From: Mustelus asterias
Lineage: Eukaryota
Assembly: GCF_964213995.1 (NCBI RefSeq)
Contig: NC_135830.1
Coordinates: 12,214,001-12,278,000 of the forward strand
Length of the DNA stretch: 64,000 nucleotides
Direction of reading: 5' to 3'
Positions 1 to 60,216 of the stretch are shown here, one piece after another; position 1 is the stretch's first letter; the number at the start of each line of letters is the position of its first letter. A program made the translations under genes and the position numbers. The notes under the pieces are model-generated. The model searched no databases and was not told the origin of the DNA. It saw nothing but the letters and a program-made list of their open reading frames with translations.

Positions 1-800
1 CAGAGATCGAGGTTCCCTGGGGTGATATTCAGTGAGTTCAGAGCGATGCTATCAGAGGGAATGGAGCAGAGAGAGAAGAGCCCTGGGGTGATGCTCAGTG
101 TGTTCAGGGCAATGGAGTCAGAGGGGATGGAGCAGGGAGAGAGGATCCATGGGGTGATGCTCAGTCAGGTCAGGGCGATGGAGTCAGAGGGAATGGAGCA
201 GGGAGAGAGGATCCATGGGGTGATGCTCAGTCAGGTCAGGGCGATGGAGTCAGAGGGAATGGAGCAGGGAAAGAGGATCTCTGGGGTGAAGCTCAGTGAG
301 GTCAGGGCGATGCTATCAGAGGGAATGGAGGAGGGACAGAGGATTCCTGGGGTGATGTTCGAAGAGTTCAGGGTGATGGAGTCAGAGGGAATGGAGCAGG
401 GAGAAGGGATCCCTGGGATGATAATCAGTGAGTTCAGGGGGATGGAGTCAGGGGGAATGGAACACGGAGAGAGGATCCCTGGGGCGATGCTCAGTGGGTT
501 CAGGGCGATGCTATCAGAGGGAATGGAGCAGGGAGAGATGCTCCCTGTGGTGATGTTCAGTGAGTTCAAGAAGATGGAGTCAGAGGGAATCGAGCAGGGA
601 GAGAGAATCCATGGCTTGATGTTCAGTGAGTTCAGGGGGATGGAGACAGAGGGAATGAAGCAGGGAGAGAGGATACCTGGGGTGATGCTCAGTGAGTTCA
701 GGGACATGGTATCAGAGGGAATGGAGCAGGGAAAGAGGATCCCTGGACTGATGCGCAGTGAGTTCAGGGGGAAGGAGTCGGAGGTAATGGAGCAGGGACA
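1..800. repeat. 66-bp-unit minisatellite, about 12 diverged copies (continues off the 5' edge)
   Basis: Unit resembles GGGGTGATGCTCAGTGAGTTCAGGGCGATGGAGTCAGAGGGAATGGAGCAGGGAGAGAGGATCCCT; ORF 22..810 shows the matching 22-aa periodicity. Confidence 0.9.
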
Positions 801-9048: not shown

Positions 9049-9091
9049 ATGGGAATCCTCCTTGTTTTCACCCTATCTGTCTGTTTACCCC
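9049..9091 (+). CDS. NAR-TCR V leader exon (MGILLVFTLSVCLP)
   Basis: ATG at 9049, hydrophobic signal peptide, phase-1 donor GTGAGT at 9092; splices in frame to the acceptor TTCCAG ending at 9239. Confidence 0.9.
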
Positions 9092-9239
9092 GTGAGTACC
9101 GATCAAACTAATCCACAATGTGTGGATTGAATATAAATCTGTCCCAGTCCATCCCAATTACAGACACTGTCTGGGGTTTCAGCCCCGTTGTGTGGTTCTC
9201 CTCTGATGGTCCATTAAACTCTCCCTCTTTAATTTCCAG

Positions 9240-9527
9240 GATCTTTCAGTCAGTCAGTAACGCAGAGCCCGGCAGCGTTGACCAGGAAGGAGTGTCAGTC
9301 TCTCACCATCACCTGTATCTTTTACGGTCATAATTGGGGCTATTATTTCCAAAATGGATATTTCTTCAGACAAACCCAGACCGGGACGGAGCGGGAGCGG
9401 ATCTCCAGCGGAGGGAGATTTGTTGTGTCTGTGAACAGAGCAAAAAAGACATTTTCGCTGGAAATTCGGGATGTGCGAGTTGAAGACACCGCCACCTATT
9501 ACTGTAAAGCTGATTACTGGTACTACA
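9240..9527 (+). CDS. NAR-TCR V segment (IgNAR-like V domain), intact
   Basis: Translates (R)SFSQSVTQSPAALTRKECQSLTITCIFYGHNWGYYFQNGYFFRQTQTGTERERISSGGRFVVSVNRAKKTFSLEIRDVRVEDTATYYCKADYWYY. Short domain lacking CDR2 strands, IgNAR-type RIS.GGRF..SVN...K.FSL.I.D..VED..TY.CKA motifs, extra FR1 Cys. Confidence 0.93.
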
Positions 9528-9565
9528 CACCGTGATGGGCCTCGACTTCCAGCGATACAAAAGCT
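9528..9565 (+). promoter_or_regulatory. Recombination signal sequence (22-bp spacer) of NAR-TCR V
   Basis: CACCGTG 9528-9534, 22-nt spacer, ACAAAAGCT 9557-9565. Confidence 0.9.
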
Positions 9566-9935
9566 CTCCCTGCAGATTCTCACAGAACCAAATGATAAAC
9601 CGGAGTTAATCTGCCCTGAACACCGCCCACCCCCTCCCCCCTCCACCACCCGCCCCCGGCCAACCCCCCACAATAGCGTCTCATACTCTCTGTTTTAATG
9701 AGACCTGATTACTACCATGAACCTTTTGAGTTTTATAAACACGGAATGTGAGTGGATGGTGGTGTCTTTCCTGGGAATGTTGTCGGTGAATGGAGAATGG
9801 GAATGATTGATCCCAGTTGCAAACCCTCACACCAGATGGGATTCTGGACTCACAGCCCACACTGCGCGCTGTTTAATTAATGTTCCAACATCCCACCCAG
9901 TACCCGAGGTTTTGATACTGAATTGTAACACTGTG

Positions 9936-9954
9936 CAAATGGTTGGGGGGCGGT
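9936..9954 (+). other. NAR-TCR D segment (12/12 RSS), CAAATGGTTGGGGGGCGGT
   Basis: 5' GGTTTTGAT(9908-16)-12-CACTGTG(9929-35); 3' CACAGTG(9955-61)-12-GCAAATACC(9974-82); open in all three frames. Confidence 0.92.
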
Positions 9955-10332
9955 CACAGTGAAAAGGAGCTGAGCAAATACCTGTGCACAATTACAATAT
10001 AAATTCTCAGGGCCCAGATAGTGAATCATTGATTTGATGTTATTTTCGCTGTAATCTGGACTACTGTTACTGTAATCCCCACCATTCCCATCTTTCTTTA
10101 ATTTTTTTTGCGATGTATGAAGTGAATATTTCCTTCCTGCGGCCATTTACTGAGAACTCGGACCTCACAAAGTACAATTTGAACGGACAGAGACTTTGAA
10201 ACAATGAATATTATTTATTAATTTTAAATCCCCCCAAAAATTGGACACTACTGAATGAGTGGTGATGATTTCCCGGCAGATTGAGATGTCGGTGGATCTT
10301 GTACTGAGGAGACTGAGAGCGGTGCCACTGTG

Positions 10333-10385
10333 GGCCGATGATGATTCTGTAGATGGATCCGGGACGGTGGTGACTGTCACAGCCG
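10333..10385 (+). CDS. NAR-TCR J segment (ADDDSVDGSGTVVTVTA)
   Basis: GGATCTTGT(10294-302)-23-CACTGTG(10326-32); IgNAR-J-like DGxGTV.TV motif; phase-1 donor GTAAGT at 10386. Confidence 0.92.
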
Positions 10386-11229
10386 GTAAGTGGTTCCAAA
10401 CCCCGCCGTGTTACAGATTTTATCGTTTAATGTTCCCGATCACTTTATCATTGTGATCTGTCTCGTTTCAATCCAATCCAATCTTCCTGTGGAAAATCAT
10501 CCGTTACAGATTTCGAGTTGGGAGCTGGATGTGATTCTGGAGTCGGGTCCAGGTCAGTCCCGGGAAAAATGTCTGTGAGACCTGATGGAGTCGGCGGTCA
10601 GCGGGACAAGGATAGCGGGGCGAAGCTCGTGCGGGGCGGGGGTGGGGGGGGGGGGGGGTGGGCAGTGGGTTCGGGGTAAAGGGTGGTGAGGCGTGGGGTG
10701 CGGGTGCTCGTGTTAGATGTGATGTGGGAGTTGACAGCATCTGGGAGATTATTGATTGAAAGGGGCACGTCAACATCAAGAACTCTGTCACTTCTGATAG
10801 TTTTTAACAAGCTCAAGTTTACAACACTCCGGAATCCACTCTGGCTACTAAATGTGACTGAGGGAGATCTGTCTGTCGCTTACAACCCGGTGCAGGGTCC
10901 CAGAGCTTTCTCTTGGGCAGTAGATTGCAGTCCTACCCTTGCAATATCAATAGTATACCGGCTGAATGAGATGAATATCACTGCGGCCAATTCATTTAAC
11001 AGCAGCGACTCATTCAATACCTGACCCAGGTGACAAAAAGGAAAATGACACAACGGACTTCAGGTCTAAGTGTACTTATTGGTGGTCCAGAGGAATGTTG
11101 TAATCGAGAAATCAGTGACTGAAATTACTGACGTTGTACCTGATATTTCTTTAAATACCCTCAATTTAACAAATCACTTTTTCTTATTTACCACCGTTAG
11201 TGGTTAGTTCTGGAGCACAAGTCTTCAGT

Positions 11230-12150
11230 AATATTGCCGGGATATTTCCAGGGCCCATAGCCTTTGCAGCATCCAGTGCCTTCAGCCGGTCCTGAAGTCA
11301 CGTGGAGTTAATCAAACTGGATGAAGACTGACATCACTGATGCTGGGGACCTCCGGAGGAGGTCGAGATGCATCACCCACTCGATACCTGTGGATGAAGA
11401 TTGTTGCCAATGGTTTAGCCTTATCTTCAGCAGATTGACAACTCATTTATAGGGACGCCGGGTGTTGCTGCTGGGATTGCCTTCTAAAGTCTTCATTGAC
11501 CAGTGTAACTCCCTCGTTTGCTAATGTCAATGCAGGGGACATGCTGGGCCATGAGGTTACAGATTGTGTTTGAGTACAATTCTGCTGCTGATGGCCCATA
11601 GTGCTTCATGGATGCCGAGCAATGAGTTGCTAGATCTGCTCGAAATCTATTCTATTCGGTCCGGTGACGGTGCCGCACTACAAGATGGAGCGTAGCTCAA
11701 TGTGAAAACAGGACTTTGTGTCCACAAGGATTTTATGTGGCCAGTCCTACTGATACTGCTCTGGTGGTGCAGCTGCGACAGTCAGGTTGCTGAGGGTGAG
11801 GTCAAGTATGCATTATTCCCTCTTGGTAGTTGCCAGTCTAGCACTTATATCTTGCTATGTGCTAGCGAGAGAGTCGTAGCGATGGATATTGAAGTCCCCC
11901 TACCATTATACATTCTGCACCCTCGCAATCCTCAGTCCTTCCTCCATGTGTTGTTCAACATGGAGGAGTGTAGACACATCAGCAGAGGCACGCGGGAATC
12001 AGCAGGTTTCTTTGCCAATGTCTGATCTGATGTAATGAGTCTTCATGCAGTCGAGGGAGGATATTGAGGACTCTCCGGGCAAGTCGCTTCCGATTATATC
12101 CCATTGTGCCGCCAGGTCTGCTGAGTCTGTCCTACCAATGGGTCAGTTTC
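11230..12150 (-). mobile_element. Old degenerate LINE fragment (endonuclease region)
   Basis: Reverse complement of GATATTGAAGTCCCCC near 11885-11900 gives GDFNI; otherwise decayed. Confidence 0.5.
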
Positions 12151-12453
12151 TTGTTGAGGCAGAAGATAAACTGCAACATCACTGAGTGACTGCGTAGCTT
12201 TGAAATGTGGAACAGCCACTCTTGCTTCTATCAGTTGGAAATGTTGCTTCTATGTCTGCATTTCTCAGGAAAGCAATCAGCAACAATCTCTGGACGGGGG
12301 GAACATGCTGGGTCTCTTTTCGTCTAGAGATTGGAGAACAGCAAAGAGGACTCATTGAAATCGTTCAACTAATGAACGGGTTAATGAGATGGATGTGGCC
12401 AAACTATTTATTTTTGGGTATGTCTGGAGCAAGGGGCTATTAACATCTGATAG

Positions 12454-13717
12454 TGTTACGATCCCAGTTGATGTTACTACTGGATGGGAAACTCCCAGGT
12501 GCAACTCTGGCTAGAAATAATGTAGTGTTTTCTTCTGTTTTAGAACAATTGGGGGAATGGAGTAACTGGATGGCCAATTAGCTTTTAGTAACAGAAGAAA
12601 CAAACATTTATTAAACATGAAAAGTTTTACTATGACACAATTCTCCTTCAGCCCAACTCCTCATGACTGTACGCAGACTTTAAGGATAACACAGGTTGCA
12701 AAATATATCTTTGCTATACTGTTCTCCGTAAATGCAGTCCCTGTATAGCAATAGGCCACTGTGGCCAGCTACACCCCATTCCAAAACCTAATTGTCGATG
12801 CCACCCAATCGAATTTCTGTGGATTGCTCCTCACAACCCCGCAGATCATTATACTGATGTGAACCAACTGGCCTCACTGGACTCTGGCATCCACACGAGT
12901 GTTTCCCATTCCCACTCTCGAAAAGTCCTGTCTTGGTAAATTCTACCAAATAACCCTTTGCCTGCGCTATTTTCAGCAAGGATCCACTTCCAGGATTTCG
13001 CACTTTGCTTTCACTATTCCTTTGTCTTGAATTGTCATGTGCATTCAAGTTTCCATACAATCTCAGAGGTATGCAGCCATACCAATACTGCTTCACTGGT
13101 CTCACCAACATCATGATTATATCTGAAAGCTGGCTTGCCAACTTCACCAGGTCTGTGAATTTCAGCTCTGCATTTAGCTGGGGGCCTCTGTCTCTGCCCC
13201 TTTCTTCAACTTTGATAAACAGTACATAGTTCAGTTTCGAGTTCCTTTGGCCCTCTCAATTCAGTTGTCCTGGGACCTTTTTCAATTCCTTGGTTTCTAA
13301 AACGATCTGTTCTTTATTTTCTGGAAGTTCTTTTTTCTCATTGCTCCATTTTATTGCTTCTGCTTCTGGCAGAGCTGTGAGAGGTGCTTTTTGTCTCATT
13401 ACGTATCTCCTACGGCCTTGAGTCCAGTAAAACCCCTTCCTAACATAAAGGTGGCTCCTGGTTCCCAAGCAACAGCCTATTCCTTCTTCACAGCTTTTTA
13501 TTTTTCATGTCATTAACTCCCTCAGCATAATACAGGCACAGTTTAAAATGAACCAAAAACCACATACATGCAAACATCTTTGTTTAATAGCAAGCTAACT
13601 AGAATTTTACCCGACCTTACACAGAAACGCTAAACTAAACTCACTTAAATCTATATCTTATTTCTAATATCCAATAATACAATCACAGACTATATAAACT
13701 ACTTCTGCCTCCTGACA
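12454..13717. mobile_element. Probable solo LTR inside the NAR-TCR J to supporting-Vdelta intron
   Basis: Starts TGT, ends ACA; flanked by 4-bp direct repeat ATAG (12450-53 and 13718-21). Confidence 0.6.
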
Positions 13718-14744
13718 ATAGTGATTCAGAGAAAATCTAAACATTAAGAAGAAGAATTTTAAATATCAGCCAGGAAGAGGAACTCACTGTCACATTGAAT
13801 GTTTGGAGCAGCAGGTATTGACGCATCTATGGGAAGACTTGAAAAGATCCGAGGGAGAACAGATCAGACTGACACAGGGAGCTGGATGGGAAAAATCAAT
13901 TAGAAAACTGAGGGCTGAGGCTGGTCTGGAGTATTTCCACAGACATAAATGAGTGGGCCGAAGTGTCTCTTCTTCTTCTGAAGTTTCTATAAAATGTACA
14001 ACTTAGAGAAAACTCTGCCCAGAGAACCCGGGAGAGAATCAGTTAATGAGCAGAAAAAACGAAATTGTCGGAGATCCAGAAGAGGCAGTTCCCAGTGAGT
14101 AACAGTAAAACCACTGCGGAAACTGAACAGAATGAACGCAACTGGCAACTATGAGACTTTGGGGCATGCTCCCACGACACAAGAAACCCAAGCAGCAAAA
14201 AGTAAATGAAATGAAACTGACTAGATATTTCAATGTTAAGTGAAGGGGAGAAAACATGATACTGACAGAAAATAAACAAATAGATTAAAAAGCAAACACA
14301 GACTCTCAGGAAGTGTTAAACTGAAATAAATGTATGACATTTGACGACCGTTGTTCGGCATGGTTCGGTCCCATTGGAGCTGATGAATCACAGTCATTCT
14401 TTGTTGGATCTTGCTGTATGCTGTGATGTGACGCAGCTGCGTTACTCTCTGACAATCATTTCTGGAAACGGATTGCGTCACTGACAATAAAATGTTCCCT
14501 CGGTTTGTCTCTCAACATGGAAAACTGAAATTGAAACCGAACATATATCGTAAAATCATTTCGTCTGGAAGGGCGACATTCGGCCCCTAGGGTAGATGCT
14601 GCCCCTTTATAAATGAAATCGAATTCTTCCACAAGCCATGAATTTTCCCGATAAACCTGCTGTTTTCCTGTTCATGAATGTGATCGTTGCTCATTCATAA
14701 TTCACTGTTAAACCAGCTCCTACTGAGCTGAAAGTATATTCATG

Positions 14745-15225
14745 GATTCACAGAATTTACTGCAGAAAGACAGGCCCTTCGGTCCAAACTGATCCATGCC
14801 GATCAAAATGCTCATCTAAGCTCAGCCATTTGCCGGCATTTGGCCCATATCTCTCTAAACCTTTCCTATCCATGTATCTGTCCAAATGCCTTTGAAATGT
14901 TGTCAATGTCGCTGCCTCAACCACTTCCTCCGGCAGCTCATTCCATATACGTACCACCCTCTGTGTAAAAAGAAGTTGCTCTGCAGGTTCCCGTTACTTC
15001 TTTCCCTATTCCCTCTTGTTCTCGATTCCCCAACCCTGGGAATAAGACTGAGTTCATTCGCCCTATCCGTGCCTGTTATGATCTTATACACTTCTACAAG
15101 ATCACCCCTCTATCTCCTACGCACCAAAAGAAAAAGTCCAAACTCTCCCTATAACTCAGTCCCTTGAGTCCTGGCAACATCCTTGTAAATCTCTTCTGCA
15201 CTCCCTCCAGTTTAATAACATTGTT
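14745..15225 (-). mobile_element. CR1 3' end fragment
   Basis: Minus ORFs 14757..14957 and 14903..15091 (VRIWNELPEEVVEA, YKII.G.DR). Confidence 0.8.
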
Positions 15226-15418
15226 ACAGATCATTAGAACTTGTGCAAAATAAAATGTCACCTCATTGTACACTGGTTTATAGCGTAAGTCAATATCGTT
15301 CCATTAGAATTAAAATAATAATAACTCCGCATAAAACTGAGCTACTCCTGCGACTGACACAATCTCCAACTAAAAAATGGCAAAACCTAAACAAAACGCT
15401 TTTTTTCTAATCCTGCAG

Positions 15419-15724
15419 ATTCCTCTTCCCTGGTATCCAAGAATCCGCCTCTCCAAATCTCTGCTGCCGATGACACGGTTACATTAAGCTGTGAATATTC
15501 AGGAATCTGTCAGTACACAGTACACTGGTACAGTCAGCCCCCAGGGCAAACTCTGAAATACTTGCTGCAGAAACACACTTCAGGAGGGGACAATAAAGAA
15601 AACGCTGCCGGGGAGAGAATTACTGCTTCTATCGATTCTGTCCAGAAAATCAGCCGGTTAAAGATCTCCAAACTGCAACTAAGCGACTCGGCTGTGTATT
15701 ACTGTGGACTGAGTCAGCACATAG
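15419..15724 (+). CDS. TRDV: Leaderless 'supporting' TCR Vdelta of NAR-TCR, intact
   Basis: Pyrimidine tract plus CTGCAG acceptor ending at 15418, in phase with the NAR-TCR J donor. Translates (D)SSSLVSKNPPLQISAADDTVTLSCEYSGICQYTVHWYSQPPGQTLKYLLQKHTSGGDNKENAAGERITASIDSVQKISRLKISKLQLSDSAVYYCGLSQHI with canonical C, W, YYC and an extra CDR1 Cys. No leader seen upstream. Absent from the ORF track. Confidence 0.92.
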
Positions 15725-15946
15725 CACAGTGATACAGAACACGGAGAGAGCTGTACAAAAACCTGAACATGGCGAGGATTACAGACACAGTGATACAGAA
15801 CACGGAGAGAGCTGCACAAAAACCTGAACATGGCGAGGATTACAGACACAGTGATACAGAACACGGAGGGAGCTGCACAAAAACCTGAACATGGTGAGGA
15901 TTAGAGACACAGTGATACAGAACACGGAGAGAGATGTGCTGAAAAC
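15725..15946 (+). repeat. 61-bp tandem array of 23-RSSs behind the supporting Vdelta
   Basis: CACAGTG at 15725, 15786, 15847 and 15908, each with a 23-nt spacer; ACAAAAACC at 15755, 15816 and 15877; fourth nonamer degenerate (GCTGAAAAC 15938-46). Confidence 0.95.
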
Positions 15947-24021: not shown

Positions 24022-24797
24022 ATGAGGTTAACAATGTTACTCGGACTATTGGAGGGTTCCTTCTGCAGTGAGCTGCTTGACATTTCCCCAAATTCCTGCT
24101 GTGTGTGTTTGCTGAACCTCACCTTTCAATGGTATGTTACAGGGGAAGGAATCATCATAAAATCCCAACAGTGAGAAGGAGGCAATTTCACCATTGAGTT
24201 TGCACCCAGGCCCACTCTGCCATGTCCCCGTAACCCTTACTAATCACCTAATCGAGACATCTACCGATATTTAGGAACACCTAGCGTGCATATCTTTGGA
24301 CTGTGGAAGGAAATTGGAGCATTCAGAGGAAACCCACGCAGGCACGGGGAGAACGTCTAAACTCCACACAGATAGTACTCAGGCCTGGAATAAAAACCAC
24401 TGTGCCACCGATCCGCCCATCACGATAATGGATGTCTCTTTGACTTTAACAGGTGTCCAGTCGGAAGTAGTTCTGACGCAGCCAGAGGCAGAGAAGTGGT
24501 TCCCAGTGTAGTCCCTGTCCCTGACCTGCAATACCAGCGGCTTCGACTTCAGTGGCTATTGGCTGTACTAGTACTGTCATGGTACCTGAAAGAGGCCAGA
24601 CTGGCTAGTTTCCTACTATGATGAAGACTTCCATTGATACTGTGGGGAGACTCGAGGACGATTCACTGTTTCCAAAGAGCTTGCACACAATATATTTGCT
24701 TTGGATGTCAGGTTTCTGACGATGGAGGAAACAGCTGCTTATTGGAGTACACAGTTAACACAGTGAGGCGGGTCAGCCCCAGATTTGTAAAAAGAAC
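24022..24797 (+). pseudogene. IgH-like V pseudogene (leader 24022-24067; V exon 24453-24758; RSS 24759-24797)
   Basis: Leader MRLTMLLGLLEGSFC; exon SVQSEVVLTQPEAE...LTCNTSGFDFSGYWLY*...GRFTVSKE...NIFALD with four in-frame stops and the second Cys lost; CACAGTG-23-AAAAAGAAC. Confidence 0.88.
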
Positions 24798-26465
24798 CCA
24801 AACTAGAGGAACTGCACACAGTTTGTCCACTTCATTAAACTCCAATAGATTCATTGCTGACAACAATTCATGGAACCATAGTGTTACTCTACCACACAGA
24901 ATAAGGCCATCCATCTAATGTACGGATAATATCACACCCGGACAGTCACTTCCTCATAAATCTCATGTGGTTTCAGTTTGCTAAGTGGAATGAAATTTTT
25001 GTAATATCACTCAAACTTTTCAAATCCTGACAGGGCTGGTCAGACTGGATTCAGGAATGTTGCTTCCTCTGGCTCCGGGGTTTGGGGAGGGGGGGGGGGG
25101 CGGTGGAGGGGGGGGGAGGGGGTGGAGCGTCTAGAACAGAGTGTCAGCGTTTCAAAATATGTGATAGGTCATTTATGAGAAATGCCTTCACTCAGAAGCT
25201 GTGGAACTCTCCACCTCCGGAAGTTGCGGAGGCCAAGTATCTGAATATATTTAAAAATGAAATAGATAGATTTCTAGACTCTAATGGTGTGAAGGATTGT
25301 AGGGAGAAAGGAGTATTGCAATTGAAGATCAGCCATGATCATAATGAATGATGGAGCAGGCTCTAAGGGCCGAATGATCTATTCCCGCTCATATTTTCTG
25401 TGATTCAATGCTAAAAAGTCGACCATGTGGTGCTTTAACAAGTATCATTGGAAAGTGTACAGCCGCAGCATGGAACATACTATCATGATCCAAGATATTA
25501 GGCTTAATCGCCTATAAAAGCTACCCGGATCTGCACCGGATGTTCTCTAACCTCCAAGACGACGGACCAGATGCCACTGTGCTACTGCGGCCCGTTGACT
25601 GAATGAATGAAGCTCCAACAACACTCAAGAAGCTCGACACTATTTAGGACAAAGCAATTCAGTTGATGGCAACCAATTCCACAAATACACACATTGGCAG
25701 ACGTGGCACAGTGGCAAACATTTAGACATGCAGGAACTCGCTAAGGCTCTTTAGGCAGCACTTTCCAAACTTACAAACACTGCCATCTAGGGGATAAGAG
25801 CAGCAGATACCTGGGACCACCACGACCTGGAGGTTCACCTCCAAATCACTCCCATCCAAACTGGGAAAGATTCTCCAGACTACACACGTAACTACAGAAT
25901 AATGGATTATTCTTTACACAGCTGGGATCTGGAATGCATTGCCTGCATGAAGATTCAACAACAAATTTCCTTGAGCATTGGATATATTGCTTGAATTGGA
26001 ATATGAAGCGATCTGTGGAATGTACAGGGGAGATTATCGGTGTTGTTATGTCAGTGAATTGAATGGGCAGTTTGGACAGCATGTGACGGTCATGCTAAGA
26101 GCCTACCTTATTAAATCATTCTGCTAAAGCAACATGGAATCAGTCCCCTAATGAAAATAATGTTCCAGACGGTACTGTTAACGGAAACATGAGGAATATG
26201 ATTCAATTCGCCCTGAGTAACAATGAATCTTTGCAGCTTTATTTAACAATGCAAATTCGTTGGCGCCCATTCTGTATTGATGTGGATATATTGTCACGTG
26301 TTGACAGTGTCTTCTATTCTAATTGGTGTCTTGTCAAAACCCTCCCCCTGCCCTTGTACAACCCGTTGTGACTAACGATCAGAATTTAAAGATCAGCCAG
26401 TGCTCTGTTCAGTGAATGACTGGAGGGAGTCCCGGGAGGAGGGTGTCTAAGTTAACACAAGCTCC

Positions 26466-26517
26466 ATGAGCATGGCGCTAGCAATATCTCTCGGTCTGTT
26501 TATTGGCTTCTTATCCT
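26466..26517 (+). CDS. Leader exon of the IgH-like V (MSMALAISLGLFIGFLS)
   Basis: ATG at 26466/26472, hydrophobic core, phase-1 GTGAGT donor at 26518; resembles shark IgH leaders ending VQS. Confidence 0.88.
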
Positions 26518-26636
26518 GTGAGTAGTTGGATATTCTCAGAAAGTTCCCATAGTCTCTGTTTAACATTAATCATTCCCTGTGGCGTGACACAAACTGGATT
26601 CACCTCACCATAATTATTGTTTCTTTCGGTTAGCAG

Positions 26637-26941
26637 GCGTCCAGTCGGATGTGGTGTTGACCCAGCCAAAGGCAGAGACGGGGATAATAGGGCAAACCCT
26701 GACCCTAACCTGTAAAACCAGTGGATTTGATCTTGGGAGATACACCATGCTTTGGTACCGACACAGTCCCGGGAAGGGACCGGGCTGGCTCCTTTGGTAC
26801 TACAATGAAAATAGCAAGAATTACAATCCGGAGTTTGGTGAACGAATCACTGCGTCCAAGTACCTTTCCAACAGTGTATTCGCGCTCTCTATTAGGACTT
26901 TAACAATGGGAGACAGCTCTACGTATCACTGTGCACAACGG
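26637..26941 (+). CDS. IgH-like V segment (IgW-V/TAILV-type) in the TCRdelta locus, open, with 23-RSS
   Basis: CVQSDVVLTQPKAETGIIGQTLTLTCKTSGFDLGRYTMLWYRHSPGKGPGWLLWYYNENSKNYNPEFGERITASKYLSNSVFALSIRTLTMGDSSTYHCAQR; CACAGTG(26942-48)-23-ACACAAACC(26972-80). Confidence 0.9.
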
Positions 26942-29900
26942 CACAGTGAAATAGATCACACCCAGCCCTGTACACAAACCCACAAGAGGAATTGCAGCCA
27001 TTTCCCTGCTTTTATTTTCATTCATGGGATGTCCACCCTTAATTTTCCTTGAATTAAATGGTTTGTTCGGCCATATCAAATGGTGTTTGAGAGTCAACCG
27101 CATTGTTGTGTGGATATGCCGTCACAGGTAGGCCAGGTCAAGTAAGGAAGGTAGATATCTTTCCTTGAATGGTATTCGTGAATCAGATCAGTCTTTACAA
27201 CAATCGACAATTGTTTCACGGTTGTCATTAGATTTTTGATTCCAGATTTTTACTTAATTCAAATTTCAGTATCAGTCTTTGTGGGATTCGAGCCCCCTTT
27301 GCACAGTAGTTATTCCATTGATCTATGTTCTTACGTGGAACACCACCCCCGACTGAACATCTGGAAAAGTGAAGAAGCACTGATTATGGAGGGGGTGGGG
27401 GGGGGGGGGGGGGCGGTTGAATCCAGTTCGAGTAATCTCACCAGGGAGGAGGAACATCGAGATGGAGACGTTGCACACTTCTGAAACTGTCGAGCTTCCT
27501 ACAGGATCTGAAAGCAGGAAACACAACCAAGAGATATCACTCAAAATATTCTCCTGGAGCCTGTGTTGATTTAGACACAAACCCGATTCCACCCCCACCC
27601 CCTCCCCACCCTTCCCCTCCTGGTCAATCACTGAACAAAGAACCGGGGAGTTTTCAGATACTTTTACTCAGTATGCTTTTGTGCCGTTAACAATACTGTC
27701 CCGAGCATAAACCCCAATCGGTGACTGATACCCAGGGTGTTTTTTGGGTATGTTTCAGTCAGATAGGATTGTAAAGTTATATCCATTACATTCCATTGAA
27801 ACCACTGATTCGATTCAGGACAATCCGAATGGTCTCACTGCCCCACTTATTACACACACATACATTTATGTTCCCGCTGAAACCGCCGATTCCATCCTCA
27901 ACGGAAGTTACCACTCAGAATGCATCTAGCACCCATCCAGGCTTGCCTTTCGGAGTACGCTGGATATCATTTATATAAAATATCCAAGGAGAGGCAGTTG
28001 CATTGGCGGGAAGAAAAATGTCAAAATGACGCAGGTTTAAGATGATTTGCTCCAGTTTAGAGTGGCCCCAGAGTAGCGTCGGTGTTACCTGGCAAGTTGC
28101 AATGTTTCAGGAGCTGCCCATTAATTAGGGCGGGGGGATTGGTTCCATGGTGATTTTCAAAGGAGAGACAGTTCAGTGTTGGCAATGTCTATATTGTAAA
28201 TGCTTTGTGCCAATTGTACGAAGGTGGGAACAAGTCGGGAAAGACTTTGACTGATAAAATCTCTCAACCAGGTCAAATAGAAGGTTCATAGGAATATCAC
28301 GACATCGGACTTCTTTTCCATGGTCGCTCCTATCCTGCTCAATCAGTATATGTTGAATTATTAGTGGTCATCGGATGTCGATGCTGGACTATGGGGAGGT
28401 GGTGGCCCACTGGTATTGTCATTGGATCAATAATTCAAAGACCCAGGTTACTGATTCGGGGAAGAAAGGTCAAATCTGACCAAGGCATTTGGTGAAATTT
28501 GAAAACAATAAAATAAAATCTAATGACGACCATTGTCGATGGCTCTAAAACCCCATCTTGTTCATTAATGCGGCTTTGGGGAAGGAAATGTGCCGTCCTT
28601 ACCTGGCCTGGCATAGACGTGACTCAAGATACAGAGTAATGTGGTTGAAACTGAAATGTTTCTGTTAATGGCAACACTCAGAATTTTTCAGGTATGAAAT
28701 CAGCATTTGAGAAGCATCGAGATGAACACTTCAAACCTTTTATATACAAGGCAATGGACTAAGTGCTGGAACACGGAGCTGTTTGATGGCCAAGACAAAC
28801 AAAAATGGATGAAGGGCTGTACAATTCCATGGCCTAATGACTAACTCACCAGCTCCCCTTTCAATTCGGCTATGGGACATTAAACGCCTAACAGAGAAGA
28901 CAAATGATTTTATATCATATCCAAAAGTGGATGTGTGACATTGTATAACTTCCTCAGTTTTGACATTGGAGCAGTGGAATTGGGCTGGAATCCCCAACGA
29001 TTTCGAGATGATAACCTTACACATTTAACCAGGAGAAATGAGGTGCGGAAGTTGATCATTACTGAGACAGAAGACAGCTGAAACCTGCAGTGCGCAGAAA
29101 AACCTGCATTGTAGCTACTTCTCAAACCTCCTTCGACAGTACATTAAATCCCACGAGCTCTACCTTCCAGAAGGCCAGGGCCAGCAGACACATTGGAATC
29201 ACCATCGCCTGGAGGTTGTTAATGTGCCAGAGAAAAAAACACAAGTATGTTACGAATTCCATATGTTAGGTTATGACTAGACCCCAACAGTGTTTCTATT
29301 TTGACATTAGTGTGAGGATAAGGTGTTTCGCTCCAGGTCTGATTCCATTGACACACAAGGAAGCGCTTATCAAAACTAACTTCATTTAACAATACAGTAC
29401 AGTTTGACTATAACGAACGAATTAGTTTAACTTTTCCCAATTGAAATGCTTAGCTTAACACGATGCAATTCACAGCCACTAATGCATCTCTATTAGTTCA
29501 AATTCAAGCAATATTCCTCTGATCGACTTGAACTCCTTTTCAAAATCAGTAGCAACCCCCTGCTTATGCGCTTGGACTTGTTAAAAGTGCTAAAACACCT
29601 CTGGAGAGAGAGGCAGACAGAGAGACAACTGACTTCTGCCAGCCCCACACAGCAGCCTTCAGAGAGAGAGACAGTGAGAGAGAAAATAGAGAGAGAGAGA
29701 GAGATGGACAGAGAGAGAAAGACCTCTTTCTTCTTTCAGGACCAAGCAGAAACTGACTGTTTTAAAATAAAATAAAGCATTGTGTTTTCCTTGCAAGCCC
29801 ATTCACATGACCCTGCCTCTGCCAATCAACCCAATCAAAGCCCTACTCTGAAACCACAGGGGAAAAACCAAAATAAACAAAAATGCATTAAATCAGATTA

Positions 29901-33316: not shown

Positions 33317-35043
33317 AAGATTCATAGAGTCAGACTCTGTCATTGTGAATTCTATTGGTAGGTTATGTAGCTCCTCATCCGCGTGTTAAGTGTAATTCTA
33401 CTGTGACGCTTTTATATCGGAAGTACCATTTAATTATGACGAAGGGAATTTCAATGGAAAGTAGGACAGGAATTAGCACATCTTGCATTTAGAATTTCTG
33501 CATCCCCAGTATCTCGAAGGGGATGGCAAAAATAAATTTTGCATCGGTTTATCACATTACGTGTAAAACGAGAACTTTAACAATCCTCTACTTTGTCCGC
33601 TATTCAGCTTCACTTGGGTGTGCAGATATCGCCATGCCTTTGTTACCCCTGTATTCGCCTATTCAAGTTTTATATCCCACATTCCTCACTGCATTAACTT
33701 CAGTTGGTCCAAACTATTATATCCAGAACTTCACTCCCTCCAAGTCTGGCTGATACAGGAGCTGCCGTAGTGTCACTGTCAGGTTGCTCTATTAGCGATT
33801 AGCCAGAGGCACGGGCTTTCTGCACGTGGGTTCAAATCTCACCATGGCTAGTTATTTGAATTGCAGCTCAAGTCTTAAACGTGGAAGGGAAGGTTTTATT
33901 TTCAGTAATGTTCACTGTGAATCTGGTTCAATTATTCTTTTTAACGTTATCTACCAACCTTACGTAGTCTGACTGTAAATCGACAGTGATGGACAGGCAT
34001 CTGGAATGACTTAACAATCCGATTCGATTTTATTTAATTTGCTTTAAAATTGTCACATATATTCGTACACAGTGAAAAGTATTGTTTCTTGCATCATATG
34101 CAGACAAAGCATACCGTTCATAGAGAAGGAACGGAGACAGTGCAGAATGCATTTTTACAGTCATAGACTAAGTTCAACTTAGTGCAAGGTAAGTCCATTC
34201 AAGAGTCTGATTGGAGCAGGAAAGAAGGTGTTCTTGAGTCGGTTGTTATGTGTCCTCAAACTTTTGTATTCCTTTCCCGACGGAAGAAATTGGAAGAGAG
34301 TACATCCGGGGTGTGTGGGTTCCTTGATTATGCTGGCTGCTTTTTCGAGGCAGCAGGAAGTGTAGACTGTTTCAATGGATGGGAGGCTGGTTTGCTTGAC
34401 CGACTGGGCTTCGTTCATGGCCCTTTGTAGTTCGAATCCATTCAGTTCAGGGCAATTGGGAATGTCAGCGACAAAGTCATTCCATTACATACTTAGTAAA
34501 AACCAAAACCATATTGGCTTCTGGGTAAACATCGGGATTCCCGTCATTCTCATCAAATCCCTCGATACTTGCTCTTCTCACCATCTTTGTAACCTTCTCC
34601 AACCTGTATGCCTTTCAGTCTGTTGTTGCTCCAGTTTTAGCCTTTTGAAAGTGTGCGTAATTCCTCTGGGCCCCTCAATCCGCGAGCGTGCCTTCAAGAG
34701 CCTTGTACCTGAGCTGGAGAATTCTCGACGTTAACCACTCACCGCCGCCCCCGTCCACCTGCTCTGTTTACCTACCTCCATTCCTTTAACAATGTTCCTG
34801 AAATCTTACCTCACCCTCAAAACATCCTGCTGGTCATCTAACCCCATAGCTTCTCTGTGCAAAATATTTTTTTAGCCAGCGCTCGTATGAAATCCTATGG
34901 ACCGTTTTACTCGGGTTTTATAGGAGTGGAATTGATGTCTGCATTTATCAGCGAGATTCTGCTCTCGGAGGTGACGTTATACATCTGAAAGCAGCAGCAG
35001 CAACAGCTGCTGACGAGTTTTTGTGCTGGCATGTATCACTGTG

Positions 35044-35061
35044 GGGGATATACGGTGGAGC
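35044..35061 (+). other. TRDD: TCR Ddelta segment (12/23 RSS), GGGGATATACGGTGGAGC
   Basis: AGTTTTTGT(35016-24)-12-CACTGTG(35037-43); CACAGTA(35062-68)-23-ACAATAACC(35092-100); open in all three frames. Confidence 0.93.
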
Positions 35062-35310
35062 CACAGTAGCTGAATCTCCCTTAACGCCCGTACAATAACC
35101 TCCCAGCCTCACAGGAGTGCACCAACCTCTCTCAATAGCACCCCTCTCAGCCCACTCCCAGCCGCTGACCCCCATCCCCACCGTGATGTTGACCGAGTTT
35201 ATCATATTACTGGTCTGACCCAACCCTAATCAAATCAGTCGGACACACGACAGAGAGAAAGGGTGGTGAACGGGACCGCAATAGATCTTCTTATTGGATC
35301 AAACCCTGTG

Positions 35311-35370
35311 CAACATATGAAAAGGCTAAGCTCATCTTTGGCAACGGGACCAGGCTGATTGTGGAACCCA
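35311..35370 (+). CDS. TRDJ: Jdelta-1 (TYEKAKLIFGNGTRLIVEP)
   Basis: AGATCTTCT-12-CCCTGTG, FGxG motif, GTAAGT donor. Confidence 0.9.
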
Positions 35371-36707
35371 GTAAGTAACTAATCCTGGATAATGATCTCT
35401 CAACATGTTATTTTATCCCCTGTGACTTAATTGAGACATACAATTATTTTAATGATCACTGTTGTTTTATGGATGAGCAGGGATCTTTGGGAATTGGAAG
35501 CGTAGCTTGACTGGGCACTTAGATTTTCCGAAGTATTTCCTTTAAACATTTAACTGGCCTCTATCATGACAACACAAGTGCGCTGCCAACAGGGAGATAT
35601 GTCAATGATCTGGCTGTATGTAGTGCAATTAAGTGACACCTCGATAAATAGCTGGAAGAGACTCACCCAGATAGAGTCATAGGGTCATAGAAGGAGACAG
35701 CACTGGAAAAAGCCCTTCAGCGTAATGAGTGGCATAGATAGAGAAGACAGGAATATACTTTTCCCGTTACTTGAGAGAGCAGAGAGCAGCCAGGGACATA
35801 GATTTAAGGTAGGGGCAGGAGATTTAGCGGGGATGTGAAGAAAACGTTTTGACCCAAAGGGTGATGGGCGTCTGGGACTCACTGCCTGAAATGGTGATGG
35901 AGGCCGAGACCCTCTCAACATTTAAGAAGTATTTAGATATACATTTGTGATGTCATATCATACACGGCAATGGGCCAAGTGCTGGAAAATGGGATTAGAA
36001 TAGTTATTTGGTTTGTCTTTGACCGGCGGAGACATGATAGGCCCAAGGGCGTTTTCTGTGCAGTGGACTTCTCTGACTTTATGAATCTTTGCCTCAGACT
36101 ATGAATAAAGAATATTTCAAATATCACTTCAGTGTGCAAATGAATCCATTATTGTGTATGAATTCTAGTGGTCGGGAACCTGTCTGAAATGCAAAGTCAT
36201 GTTTGTGTTACCTATTTCAATGGAACCCAGAATTAGGACTGCAATCATCTATGCAGCCTTCTGGCATCAAAATCACAGTTCTGAGTTACACTTATAAAGG
36301 TGGGGTGAGTTGGGATTGGGGGGAGGGGGTGGGTTGGGGCTCAATGGTGTAGATTTCCTTTAGTTCCAATTCTGAACGAAATCCCAAAAGCAGCATTTTT
36401 GTATGGATTTGAAAATTCCGTTCGAAAGTGAGCCAGGGAATTCTCTGCACGTGTTACCTCGCTTGGATGTGTACATTGAGAACTCCCAGCCAGTCACGCT
36501 CTGACTTATTTTCCTGGGAAATTAAGAGATGGATGACTTGGAAGATTGTAAAGGTTTCTGACTAACTTTTGATCCAAACAAACTGCAGGAAATAGTATTC
36601 TGTAGCGAGACCTGCTTAACTGCCCTGAGCAATGACTAAAGCCCTTTTTGAATTTTGGCATGCATGCTCCATGTCTTTAGGTTCTGACATGGAGAGTAAT
36701 CGCAGTG

Positions 36708-36771
36708 TACGCTCGTGCTTCTTACAGACCATTAATATGCGGTGGTGGAACCAAATTGAGCGTGGAGCCAA
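36708..36771 (+). CDS. TRDJ: Jdelta-2, atypical (YARASYRPLICGGGTKLSVEP; CGGG in place of FGxG)
   Basis: GGTTCTGAC-12-CGCAGTG, open frame, GTGAGT donor at 36772. Confidence 0.75.
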
Positions 36772-37629
36772 GTGAGTAGAATCTATTGGCATCAATTACG
36801 GGTGTCACGGTGGCACAGTGGTTAGCACTGCTGCCTCACAGCTCCAGCAATCCAGGTTCGAATCCAGGCTTGGGTTACTGTCTGTGTGGAGGTTGCACGT
36901 TCTCCCCGTGTCTGCGTGGGTTTCCGCCAGATTCTCTGGTTCCTCTCACAGTCCAAAGATGTGCGGGCTATGTTTATTGGTCATGCTGAATTGCCCATTA
37001 GTGTCAGGGAATGTGTAGGTTAGAGGGATTAGTGGGGTAAATTTGTGGGAATAGGTCCTGGGGTGGGATTGTTGTCGGTGCAGACTCGATGGGCCGAATG
37101 GCCTCCTTCTACACTGTAGGGATTCTATGATCTATGAATTTGAGAAGATTCATTTTGCACTCAGAAGTTTTTGGCCTCATTGCAAAAGTGGGGAGAAAAT
37201 TTGCCATTGTGACAAACGAACCTGATGAATTATACAATGATGAAGGAATGTGTCCTTTTCCACTTGCACATAAAGAAGTTCCTCACACAACTAAGTATCT
37301 CACACGTACCAACTATTGATACCACAATACTTCAAAGAATAGTGATCCAACTTTTTTTAAAAAAAGAAAACAATATTTCCTAATGCCAGACTGATTCCGG
37401 GATAGCAGGATTATTAGCTTTGTTTCTCTCTCGACACGTGCTGCCAGACGTACACAGTTTATCCAGAATTGTCTCTTTCTAATTTGCTATTTAATCGGTC
37501 GCACCTGTTTTGAGGGCAGATCGGTCATAAAATTATGCTAAGAGCATGTACTCCCCAGGGTTCTGAAATAGCTGAAGTCTCTGTGGCCTGCCCCAGTGGA
37601 AGCTTTCTGCTTGGGCAATAGTCACTGTG

Positions 37630-37692
37630 TGTATATTGCTGATAATGAAAAACTGATATTCGGCAGCGGCACCCGACTGCAGGTTGTGCCAA
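37630..37692 (+). CDS. TRDJ: Jdelta-3 (YIADNEKLIFGSGTRLQVVP)
   Basis: GCTTTCTGC-12-CACTGTG, FGSG, GTAAGT donor. Confidence 0.92.
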
Positions 37693-41269: not shown

Positions 41270-41278
41270 ATGATTGTA

Positions 41279-56562: not shown

Positions 56563-56874
56563 AGGCGAAAGGCCCGGTAGAACCAAAATTGAGCGTCTTT
56601 TACCCGCCAGTGCCACGGGGACCCACCGGCATCGACACAGCTGCAGTATGCTTGGCCTCGGACTTCTCGCCCAACGCAATCAAGCTCTCCCTGTACACGG
56701 GATCGGGCCAGGAGGTCAATGTGACAAGACCCAGTGTCCTATTGGAGAGCGGGAATTACAGGAGCTCGGGTTTTCTCTCTTTCACCCAATCCGAGGAATC
56801 GCCAAACATCACGTGCAAGGCATTTCACGATAATCGAAATTACTCAGTAAACATCCCGCCCACAGTTGAAATTG
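56563..56874 (+). CDS. TRDC: TCR delta constant region exon 1 (Ig C1 domain)
   Basis: Acceptor TTTCAG, donor GTAAGT, phase 1-1, in frame with the J donors. KAKGPVEPKLSVFYP...AAVCLASDFSPNAIKLSL...NITCKAFH; no C-strand Trp, as in Cdelta. Confidence 0.93.
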
Positions 56875-59601
56875 GTAAGTTTATTTTATTTTCGTTCACG
56901 TGATGTGGGTGTCGTTGGCTTGGCCAACATTTATTGCCCGTCCTAAATTGCCCTTCAGCAGAGGACATTTAAGAGTCACTTGCCGGCCAGACCATGTAAG
57001 GACGGCAGATTTCGTTCGCTAAAGGAAGTTAGTGAACCAGTGAGTTTTAACGATAATCGACAATGGTTTCAGGGTCATCATGAAACTTTTAATTCCAATT
57101 TTTAAAAAAATGTTCAAATTTCGCAGCTGCCATCCCCAGGTCAGCATTCTGGGTCGTTGGATTACCAGTCCAGTGACAATGCCACTGCGCCACTGCCTCC
57201 TCTGAGAATGTTTTATGACAGGAAGAACTTGCACTAAATATTATCCATCCTCTTAACGACCGAAGGACTCTCGGTGTCATCGTCACTCAAAGTGTAGTCT
57301 TTTTGAAAGGTTAGCTGACTAATGATTGACTGTCAATTATCCTAGTCTGGGGACTTCACTGCAGGAGTTCCTCAGTGTCTCAGGCCTAACCAGCTTCAGT
57401 TGCTTCATCAATCACCTTCAATCCATTGTAAGGTCAGAAGTTGGGATGTTCGCTGATGACTGAATAATTTTCAGCACCATTCATGACACCTCAGATCTTG
57501 AAGTAGTGCATTACAAATGCACCAATAGCTGGACAATACCTAGGCTTTGACTGACAAGCTGCAAGTAACATTTGCGCCACACATGTTCCAGGCAATGACC
57601 AACTCCAACAGGAAAGAAGCTAACAACCGGCTCTTGACATGTAATGGCATTACCATGACTGAAACAATGAACAAAGAACAAAGAAAATTACAGCACAGGA
57701 ACAGGCCCTTCGGCCCTCCAAGCCTGCACCGACTATGCTGCCCGACTTAACTAAAACCCCTTTCCCTTCCGGGGACCATATCGCTCTATTCCCATCTTAT
57801 TCATGTATTTGTCCAGGTGTCCCTTAAAACTCACGATCGTATCTCCTTCCACTACCTCACCCGGCAGCGAGTTCCAGGCACGCACCACCTTCTGTGTAAA
57901 AACTCTGCCTTGTACGTCTCCTGTAAACCTCGCCCCTCGCACCTTAAACCTATGCCCCCGAGTAATTGACTCTTCCACCCTGGGAAAAAGCTTCTAACTA
58001 TCCACTCTGTCCATGCCTCTCATAATCCTGTAGACTTCTATCAGGTCAACCCCCACTATCAACATCCTGAGGGTTAACGTTGCTCAGAAACTGAACTGGA
58101 CTATCCATATAAGTGCTGTGGCTGCAAGAGAATGTCGGAGATTGGGAATCCTGTGGTGAGTAACGTATCTCCTCATCCCCCAAATTCTCTGCCCCATCCA
58201 CAAGACATAATCATGACTGTGGTAGTGTATTCGCCACTTGCCTCGATGAATGCAGCTCCAATAACACTCAGACATTTGACACGACCCAGGACAAAGCAGC
58301 TCCGCTTGATTAACAGTGTGTTTATGAGTGTCACAAGTCGGCTTACATTAAAACTGCAATGAATTTATTGTGACAATCCCATAGTCGCCACACTCTGTGC
58401 CTGTTCGGGTACACTGAGGGAGAATTTAGCATGGCCAATGCATCTAATCAGCACGTCTTTCGGACTGTGGGAGGAAACCGGAGCGCCCGGATCAAACCCA
58501 CGCTGACACGAGGAAAACGTGCAGACTCTGCACAGACAGTCACCCAAGCTGGGAATCGAACACAGGTCCCTGACACTGTGGGCGGGGGGGAGTGGCGGGG
58601 GGGGGGGGGGGGCGGAGGGGAGTGGCGGGGCGTTGGGGGGGGGGGTGGCGGTGCAGCAGTACTAACCACTGTGCCACTGTGCGGCTCAAGCATTAAGTAC
58701 TCTATTCACAAACATCCACTTCTTCCACCACCGAAGCACAATGGCAGCAGTGTGTGCCATCCACAAGATACACAGCAGTAACTCTCCAAGTCTCCTTCCG
58801 CTGAATCTTCCAAACTCACGACCGTTATCATCTCGGAGGACAAGGGCAGCAGATACCTGGGAACACCATCATCTGGACGTTACCCTCCATGTCACTCAGC
58901 ATCCTGACTTGGAAATGTTTCGGCAGTTCCTTCACTGTCGCAGAGTCAAAATGGTGGAACTTCTTCCCTAACAGCACTGTGTGTGTACGTACCCCTGACA
59001 GACTGCAGAGGTTCAAGCAGGAGACTCACAACCATCTTCTGAAGGGGGCAATTAGGGATTGGCAATAAATGCTGACCTGCCAGTGATGTCCACATTCCGT
59101 AAATGAATAAAAATAATAAGAGCTAACTATTATAATTCAGGGCAGTGTGCAGGACCCGTAACTGCTGGTACATCACCGAATTTAGGAACGTATTAAATAC
59201 TAACGAGGGTACTGGAGAATCCCGTTCCTCTGGAGAAATGCCCTGATATCATTTAATCCACTGCAGAGCTGAAATCAGGCCTCGGTTTCACGACGTTTTC
59301 GGAAGACAGTGAAATACTGCACTGATGGAACGGCTCTGGATCCTGGGTTTTAATCCCTGATGGGGAATCTACCCTGCACTCTTTGAACTCAGAATTGGGA
59401 CGAACTAAATGGCAGAGCTACCAATGTTTCTCCGTTGTGAATAATCAAGTGAACAAGTCCAATCGTGCTGTTTGATTCTTACTTTCTTCGTGGCTTTTGG
59501 TTATGACAACAACATTATTCAAAGTGATATTGAGAACAAACATGGTTACAGTAATGTCACTTGCTCACTTAATAAGTCAAATGTCATTTTTGCCCTTCCA
59601 G

Positions 59602-59664
59602 ATAAACCTAAATGCCCTACAGGTCGAAGTGATTCCTTGACAGAATCAAGTGACACGGAAAACG
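59602..59664 (+). CDS. TRDC: TCR delta constant exon 2 (connecting peptide DKPKCPTGRSDSLTESSDTEN)
   Basis: CTTCCAG acceptor, GTATGT donor, 63 nt phase 1-1; contains the interchain Cys. Confidence 0.85.
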
Positions 59665-60106
59665 GTATGTGCTTTATTCAACATTTATCAAAGTAAAATA
59701 CTTGCAAATAGACGGATTGATAAGTGGACAAATAGGCACGGATACAGACCCGGAGATTGAATGATAAACATATAGTGAGATGGGGAAAAAGATAGATTGT
59801 CACACAGAGTGAGGGAGAGAGATATATCAATCGAGCGGGATAGCGAGAGAGGAGGAGAGGCGGGGAGAGAGAGAGAAACTCAGAGTGAAAGAGAGATGAA
59901 GATAGATAGACAGGCAAGCAGACGGTCGGACGGACGGACTGACAGAGATGGACAGACGGACGGACGGACAGGGATGGACAGACGGACGAAAGTCAAGCTG
60001 TTAGATAATGGAAAAAATATCACATTAGAGGTATACAGTTGTTTTTCAATACCAAATCATATATCCATTAAACCAGATCTATCATTTGTTTCTCTTATTT
60101 TGGCAG

Positions 60107-60216
60107 ATCGACTGAGGGTGAACTTTTTGTCTTTGACGGTGATGGGGCTAAGAATTTTGTTTTTCAAGAGCATTGTCTTCAATGTCATGATGACGGCCAG
60201 GGTGTGGCTATTTTGA
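60107..60216 (+). CDS. TRDC: TCR delta constant exon 3 (transmembrane/cytoplasmic, DRLRVNFLSLTVMGLRILFFKSIVFNVMMTARVWLF*)
   Basis: Alpha/delta-type TM with conserved Arg and Lys; VN.LSLTV.GLR.LF.K resembles Cdelta; donor GTAAGG just after the stop. Confidence 0.92.

What the first reader, a model, noticed from the sequence alone, without database searches (positions are those of the whole stretch)
9049..15763. Complete, apparently functional NAR-TCR doubly rearranging cassette about 20 kb upstream of Ddelta
Seen: leader, IgNAR-like V (22), (12)D(12), (23)J, intron, then a leaderless Vdelta (23). All splice phases are compatible: J donor G plus AT gives Asp in frame, and Jdelta-to-Cdelta is phase 1. 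Established: this is the shark NAR-TCR architecture, a TCRdelta chain with two V domains made by two independent V(D)J events. The system is known, but here all its parts sit in one window with Ddelta-Jdelta-Cdelta, directly showing cis linkage.
Basis: partly seen in the sequence, partly recalled or inferred. Interest (0 to 1): 0.75.

Follow-up and report, generated by a model that had tools for sequence, protein, structure and literature searches.

The report
Shark two-domain T-cell receptor, repeated clusters
This is an intact copy of a known shark T-cell receptor gene with two variable domains, but in this genome the whole delta-chain unit is repeated many times like shark antibody genes, some copies are inherited partly pre-assembled, and each unit likely works on its own.

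Summary
Observation confirmed: leader, NAR-type V (22-RSS), 12-D-12, 23-J and a leaderless supporting V-delta, all in frame, 19.3 kb upstream of D-delta, J and C-delta. It is NAR-TCR, a known system. The surprise is the context. The genome holds 19 distinct C-delta copies (9 groups at 99% identity, 3 on one contig), and 15 of 19 have their own NAR V and supporting V within 60 kb upstream. The two J-alpha/C-alpha blocks have no C-delta in front. The papers I read describe shark TCR-alpha/delta as one translocon. Three paralogues share one supporting-V/D-delta junction, which is also in a second animal's DNA, so it is germline-joined. A 99.5%-identical copy of this cassette carries a precise RAG inversion between the signals at 9955 and 15725, so they are real recombinase substrates. 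The layout converges on marsupial TCR-mu. Expression is untested and the primary NAR-TCR papers were not available. The scan had already noted the stacked signals and germline-joined NAR V-D cassettes elsewhere in this genome.

The parts
9049..9091 (+). Leader exon of the NAR-TCR V
   Evidence: ATG, hydrophobic 14 codons, phase-1 GT donor; conserved in 6 of 6 paralogues checked
9240..9527 (+). NAR-type V exon; extra Cys in the a-b loop, no Trp in the WYRK position
   Evidence: Open frame; the best single-domain PDB hits are VNARs, E 2e-18
9528..9565 (+). RSS of NAR V, 22-bp spacer, heptamer one letter off consensus
   Evidence: same heptamer and spacer in 4 of 6 paralogues, consensus heptamer in the other 2
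9908..9982 (+). NAR D (9936-9954) between two 12-RSS
   Evidence: its 3' signal is the one cut in the C122 inversion
10294..10385 (+). 23-RSS and NAR J (10333-10385), D-G-S-G motif in place of F/W-G-x-G
   Evidence: same motif in horn shark, basking shark and white shark models
15419..15724 (+). Leaderless supporting V-delta exon with Cys in CDR1
15725..15933 (+). Tandem array of 23-RSS, 61-bp unit, 3.4 copies (three perfect signals, one with a broken nonamer)
   Evidence: a join at a later unit would keep an in-frame stop
24454..24797 (+). Broken Ig-heavy-like V (TAILV type), several stops
26466..26980 (+). Intact Ig-heavy-like V (TAILV type) with own leader and 23-RSS
   Evidence: resembles by eye the V of the catshark IgWV-TCRD model P0033
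33892..33919 (+). Orphan 12-RSS with no usable 3' signal (decayed D)
   Evidence: also present in the C154 and C71:7.1 Mb units
35016..35100 (+). D-delta (35044-35061), 12-RSS before and 23-RSS after
   Evidence: the same D sequence is found joined to a V in C850 and C401
35307..49185 (+). J-delta group: five with intact FGxG (donors after 35370, 37692, 39309, 48337, 49185), three of them with canonical signals; further decayed J
56563..60216 (+). C-delta: Ig exon 56563-56874, connecting exon 59602-59664, transmembrane exon 60107-60216
   Evidence: 47 of 89 residues identical to the curated catshark TCRD model, against 28 of 88 to this genome's C-alpha

Best explanation
The cassette is an intact NAR-TCR gene unit that sits at the head of one of 19 assembled TCR-delta mini-clusters, and each cluster likely builds a three-domain delta chain on its own. 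Shown: parts, frames, splice phases, signals, copy number in the assembly, RAG-type joints in near-identical copies, and one inherited V-D join. Inferred from the known NAR-TCR mechanism: in a thymocyte RAG joins NAR V, D and J (22/12, 12/23) and separately joins the supporting V to D-delta and a J-delta (23/12, 23/12). The transcript would start at the leader at 9049 and splice J to 15419 and J-delta to C-delta. The chain would pair with TCR-gamma through the supporting V, leaving the NAR V unpaired as a single-domain antigen binder. Joining the supporting V to D deletes the two Ig-like V segments, so each cluster would make either a NAR-TCR chain or a TAILV-delta chain. In three paralogues the supporting V to D step is already done in the germline.
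For: Family features met. The two-V region is 72% identical to white shark P0012, whose NCBI name matches an entry curated as NARTCR. C exon 1: 19 copies, 82-100% amino-acid identity, none with a stop; transmembrane exon: 19 copies on the same contigs. Over 3.3 kb all 19 differ; 18 groups at 99.9%, 12 at 99.5%, 9 at 99%; three lie on contig C71 at 7.14, 11.04 and 12.27 Mb and are about 98% alike. 15 of 19 have a same-strand NAR V and supporting V within 60 kb upstream (my tally). C71:7.09-7.14 Mb repeats every part of the window's unit in order. Two J-alpha/C-alpha blocks (C71:18.4 Mb, C546; C exons 68 of 95 residues identical) have no C-delta in 226 kb and 121 kb upstream. Of 19 D-delta loci examined, 13 are unjoined and 6 are V-D joined. 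C119, C96 and C436 share one junction although C436's C flanks are about 90% identical to the other two. A contig across that junction stands in runs X1 and X2 at depth 34.7 and 69.9, where unique contigs stand at about 23 and 29. C122 has a perfect heptamer-to-heptamer signal joint and a coding joint trimmed by one base.
Against: No transcript seen; the NCBI model P0002 has the J-to-15419 splice but is a prediction and includes spurious exons. Some of the 19 copies are probably haplotypes of one locus (four near-identical pairs), so the locus number is lower. Four of 19 C-delta copies lack an upstream cassette in view. The three unique joins (C850, C401, C71:11.02 Mb) and the C122 inversion could be somatic. 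C850 has a C154-type cassette joined to a window-type D, so clusters may not be strictly autonomous. Two of the five intact J have weak signals.
Confidence: 0.8

Rival explanations
1. Ordinary NAR-TCR cassette in a single TCR-delta locus; the extra C-delta copies are unpurged haplotypes or assembly duplicates.
For: The assembly has 5313 contigs and 16 of 19 copies lie on small contigs; L021 and L022 are 99.9% or more alike and three more pairs are 98.9-99.5% alike.
Against: One animal has two alleles per locus, yet there are 9 groups at 99% identity and 3 groups at 95%. Three copies lie on one contig. Copies differ in D sequence, J content and spacing. Run X1 of another animal shows several paralogue variants of the supporting V.
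Confidence: 0.05
2. The clusters are real but mostly passengers of segmental duplication; one or a few are used, V segments reach any D-J-C over megabases as in a translocon, and the window's cassette may be silent.
For: 16 of 19 copies form one group at 98% identity, so they are recent. The joins in C401 and C71:11.02 Mb use broken V segments from outside a NAR cassette, and C850 looks inter-cluster. Many cassettes have no C-delta nearby. C122 carries an inactivating inversion and no C-delta.
Against: All 19 C exon 1 and all 19 transmembrane exons are free of stops, including copies whose flanks are only 83% alike. C exon 1 is better conserved than its flanks in the most divergent pair (90% against 83%).
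Confidence: 0.13
3. The V-D-J at 9049-10385 is an Ig (IgNAR) cluster that splices to Ig constant exons, and the V at 15419 is a separate TCR V.
For: The V is most like VNAR.
Against: One D only; the V at 15419 has no leader and has the CDR1 Cys of supporting V; the same J-to-V link is modelled in at least eight other cartilaginous fish species; the six-frame motif scan found no other V or J between the two.
Confidence: 0.02

Closest known systems
NAR-TCR of nurse shark and elephant shark (Criscitiello 2006, not held; features read in PMC1845163 passages)
   Same: Leader plus NAR V with a-b loop Cys and no WYRK Trp; own D and J; leaderless supporting V-delta with CDR1 Cys; uses D, J and C-delta.
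   Different: Here cassettes come with their own D-J-C-delta, repeated; the supporting V is germline-joined to D in three copies.
Elasmobranch antigen-receptor complex (PMC12227049, section 6 and Table S1 read in full)
   Same: NAR-TCR cassettes, TAILV, TCR V and IgH clusters intermingled over megabases; a germline-joined NAR V is listed for the white shark.
   Different: That paper reports TCR-alpha/delta as a translocon; its table lists one TCRD next to one TCRA in catshark and stingray. This genome has 19 C-delta and 2 C-alpha, with no C-delta in front of J-alpha.
Marsupial and monotreme TCR-mu (PMC7615758 and PMC3457774, passages)
   Same: Two-V chain encoded in repeated [V-D-J, supporting V, C] clusters; supporting V pre-joined in marsupials; platypus has 15 C genes.
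   Different: TCR-mu uses a VH-like V and a fully joined V-J thought to come from retrotransposition; here the N-terminal V is NAR-type, the join is V-D only with the D 23-RSS kept, and J-delta still rearranges. Convergent, not orthologous.
Germline-joined shark Ig clusters (PMC2193156, abstract read)
   Same: RAG-type joints inherited in multi-copy mini-clusters.
   Different: Here the locus is a TCR-delta.
Newt TRA/TRD separation (PMC12698447, discussion part 1 and passages)
   Same: TRD not embedded in TRA; duplicated TRA; a pre-joined leaderless V.
   Different: Newts have one or two TRDC, no D, no NAR V, and the loci are on different chromosomes; here at least three TRD and one TRA share a contig.

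Membership tests
NAR-TCR | N-terminal V related to IgNAR V, with its own leader | tested here: met
   72% identity over both V domains to white shark P0012
NAR-TCR | Cys in the a-b loop and no Trp in the WYRK motif of the NAR V (PMC1845163) | tested here: met
   Translation: KECQS and GYFFRQ
NAR-TCR | Supporting V-delta without leader and with Cys in CDR1 | tested here: met
   GICQY in CDR1; no hydrophobic leader in 3 kb upstream
NAR-TCR | Two separate V(D)J sets with 12/23-compatible signals | tested here: met
   RAG-type joints at these signals in C122 and at the same D-delta in C850 and C401
NAR-TCR | Constant region is C-delta | tested here: met
   47 of 89 identical to catshark TCRD model P0033, while the two C exons behind the long J arrays give 23 of 80 and 17 of 67
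NAR-TCR | One spliced transcript L-VDJ-VDJ-C | not testable with these tools
   No RNA holder listed; only a gene model
NAR-TCR | Disulfide between the two V domains; pairing with TCR-gamma | not tested
   Both Cys are present; no structure was run
Canonical single TRA/TRD translocon | One D-J-C-delta directly upstream of the J-alpha array | tested here: not met
   19 C-delta; none in front of either J-alpha array
TCR-mu | VH-like N-terminal V and intronless pre-joined V-J | tested here: not met
   N-terminal V is NAR-type; joins are V-D only. It works like TCR-mu in layout only.
IgNAR cluster | Three D segments and Ig constant exons after J (recalled, no call) | tested here: not met
   One D; the next V or C exon found downstream is a TCR V

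The most novel reading that the evidence does not exclude
In this shark lineage TCR-delta has left the alpha/delta translocon and become an antibody-style multi-cluster locus: about ten self-contained NAR-TCR units per haplotype, most of them expressed, with germ-cell RAG still remodelling them, fixing supporting V-D joins and making new heritable inversions. This would be an independent rerun of marsupial TCR-mu and would require a shark-Ig-like exclusion mechanism in T cells.
Probability: 0.5. Interest if true: 0.8.

Novelty: new variant of a known kind. Interest (0 to 1): 0.62.

Why it matters
The papers read here put shark TCR genes in a translocon and shark Ig genes in clusters. A TCR-delta in many clusters, apart from J-alpha/C-alpha, blurs that line and gives a living model for how TCR-mu clusters with a pre-joined supporting V could arise. 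It makes three questions testable with one repertoire data set, because the C-delta copies differ in sequence. Does each cluster rearrange by itself? How is one delta chain per cell kept when alpha rearrangement would not delete delta? Does the supporting V tolerate reduced junction diversity, as a structural role predicts?

Tried and rejected
Primary papers not held: Criscitiello 2006, Deiss 2019, Ott 2021, Criscitiello 2010; what they say on C-delta number or germline joins is unseen, as is the PDF supplement of PMC12227049. No RNA holder listed. Runs X3 and X4 (low cover) gave no contig across the germline V-D junction. No strand-changing joint was among the 15 joints shown of 33 on the window cassette; the listed pieces carry a mix of window and C122 letters, so these runs cannot test the C122 inversion. 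PDB search with the supporting V returned only generic antibody constructs. A leader for the V at 15419 was sought and rejected. The orphan 12-RSS at 33919 as a working D was rejected: no 3' signal. The idea that C-delta hides in the 200-N gap of C546 was rejected: the relict D and the first J-alpha-like element lie about 0.5 kb apart before the gap. No structure was predicted, since the tool gives no Cys-Cys distance. Only the top 20 of 150 scored supporting-V hits were read for signals. A word search of earlier scan findings for multiple C-delta gave none.
Full report
Observation. Five recombination signals with at most three mismatches fall in 9049-15770; 300 shuffles gave a mean of 0.1 and a maximum of 2. 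D-delta lies at 35044-35061, five J with an intact FGxG motif at 35307-49185, and three C exons at 56563-60216.

Identity. The first V is closest to VNAR among single-domain PDB chains. It has the a-b loop Cys and lacks the WYRK Trp; the second V has no leader and has the CDR1 Cys. These are the NAR-TCR marks given in PMC1845163 (passages). The two-V region is 72% identical to a white shark protein whose NCBI name matches an entry curated as NARTCR in PMC12227049 Table S1 (matched by name, species and contig size, not by accession). The C exon is 100% identical to an NCBI model named from Mustelus asterias and 47 of 89 residues identical to the catshark model with the name that the same table calls IgWV-TCRD. 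So this is NAR-TCR on C-delta.

The locus is repeated. The own-genome search gave 19 copies of C exon 1, none with a stop, and 19 matching transmembrane exons. Over 3.3 kb all 19 differ; they form 18 groups at 99.9%, 12 at 99.5%, 9 at 99% and 3 at 95%. With two alleles per locus, 9 groups need at least 5 loci; about 10 are needed if all differences are real (inference). Three copies share contig C71. Fifteen of 19 have a same-strand NAR V and supporting V within 60 kb upstream (tally); the exceptions are C71:11.04 Mb, C138, C3311 and C401, the last two short or near a contig end. The unit at C71:7.09-7.14 Mb repeats every part of the window in order at 91-98% identity. Two other C genes follow long J arrays (C71:18.4 Mb and C546), are 68 of 95 residues identical to each other and 28 of 88 to C-delta, and are read as C-alpha. 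Neither has a C-delta in front: none in 226 kb on C71, and on C546 two relict D with shortened 3' spacers lead directly into the J array.

Recombinase footprints. Of 19 D-delta loci read, 13 are unjoined and 6 are joined to a V. C119, C96 and C436 carry the same supporting-V/D junction, open in frame with the D 23-RSS kept, although C436's C flanks are about 90% identical to the other two. The join therefore predates their duplication. A junction-specific contig stands in runs X1 and X2 at depth 34.7 and 69.9 against about 23 and 29 for unique contigs. These two runs are one sample, and its letters are a mix of window and C122 alleles without both at one site, which I read as another animal. 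The other three joins are unique and could be somatic; two use broken V segments. C122, 99.3-99.5% identical to the window's cassette, has the 5.77 kb between the NAR D 3' signal (9955) and the first supporting-V signal (15725) inverted, with a perfect signal joint and a coding joint short by one base. This shows that these signals are cut in vivo, and that the cassette's geometry allows a wasteful 12/23-legal inversion. All four independent supporting-V joints seen (C122, C850, C401, the C119 group) are at the V end itself, none at a later array unit; a later unit would leave an in-frame stop. Arrays of 2-5 units follow 15 of the 20 best supporting-V hits; the other five are the joined copies.

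Mechanism. Inferred from the known system: two independent V(D)J events, a transcript from the leader at 9049, J spliced to 15419, J-delta spliced to C-delta, pairing with TCR-gamma and an unpaired NAR V (model as given in PMC6795676 section 25 and PMC3457774 passages). From the layout, joining the supporting V to D deletes both Ig-like V segments, so a cluster would choose between NAR-TCR and TAILV-delta. Autonomy of clusters is likely but not shown; C850, whose cassette is 99.5% like C154 and whose D-J-C is 99.8% like the window, may be an inter-cluster join or a mosaic haplotype.

Comparison and novelty. PMC12227049 (section 6, Table S1 read whole) and PMC6795676 describe shark TCR as translocons. 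PMC12698447 says TRD is embedded in or next to TRA in gnathostomes, with newts and a few extra loci as exceptions. PMC7615758 calls marsupial TCR-mu the only TCR with germline-joined V, but this is dated: the newt paper reports a pre-joined TRD V-J, a catfish paper appears in a search listing, and Table S1 marks joined NAR V domains in the white shark. Searches showed no report of multiple C-delta clusters or a germline-joined supporting V-D in a shark; the four primary papers were not held, so this is provisional. That search clusters at 90% identity and is not exhaustive.

Verdict. The cassette is real and of a known kind; by itself it would score about 0.3. Its setting, a multi-cluster TCR-delta apart from TCR-alpha with inherited supporting-V joins, is a new variant worth 0.62.

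Noticed in passing
window 15725-15933: Tandem array of 23-RSS behind the supporting V; arrays of 2-5 units in 15 of the 20 best copies; observed joints never use a later unit.
   Followed up: partly
window 24454-26980: Pair of Ig-heavy-like (TAILV-type) V segments, one broken and one intact, between the cassette and D-delta; same pair in the C154 and C71:7.1 Mb units.
   Followed up: partly
L041 (G000:C122:393165-398935): Precise RAG-type inversion of this cassette in a 1.13-Mb contig that has no C-delta; germline or somatic not settled.
   Followed up: partly
L072 (G000:C71:10998600-10999340): Joined IgH V-D-J exon with an inverted duplication of its own leader inside the V, followed by an Ig C exon, about 25 kb upstream of a D-delta that is joined to a broken TCR V.
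   Followed up: no
L069-L071 (G000:C71:12304000-12327000): Conventional TCR V segments, a facing pair of supporting V and a broken inverted NAR V 30-55 kb downstream of the window's C-delta; a similar arrangement follows the C-delta at 11.04 Mb.
   Followed up: partly
L111, L120 (G000:C71:18.42 Mb; C546:240 kb): Two diverged C-alpha genes, each behind its own J array; the C546 array shows strong tandem expansion, and the C71 array has no V motif in 226 kb upstream.
   Followed up: partly
L141-L142 (G000:C546:113.6 and 120.8 kb): Two relict D-delta with shortened 3' spacers directly upstream of the J-alpha array, marking where J-delta and C-delta would be expected.
   Followed up: partly
P0010, P0030: Two C-delta genes, 84% identical, apparently neighbours, in the sevengill shark; one model carries a NAR J and supporting V.
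   Followed up: partly
P0012, P0013: White shark and horn shark models with tandem NAR V(D)J domains in front of one supporting V, suggesting chains with more than two V domains.
   Followed up: no
window 41480-42320: Duplicated stretch holding two decayed J-delta-like elements.
   Followed up: no
window 9-798: 66-bp minisatellite, 12 copies.
   Followed up: no
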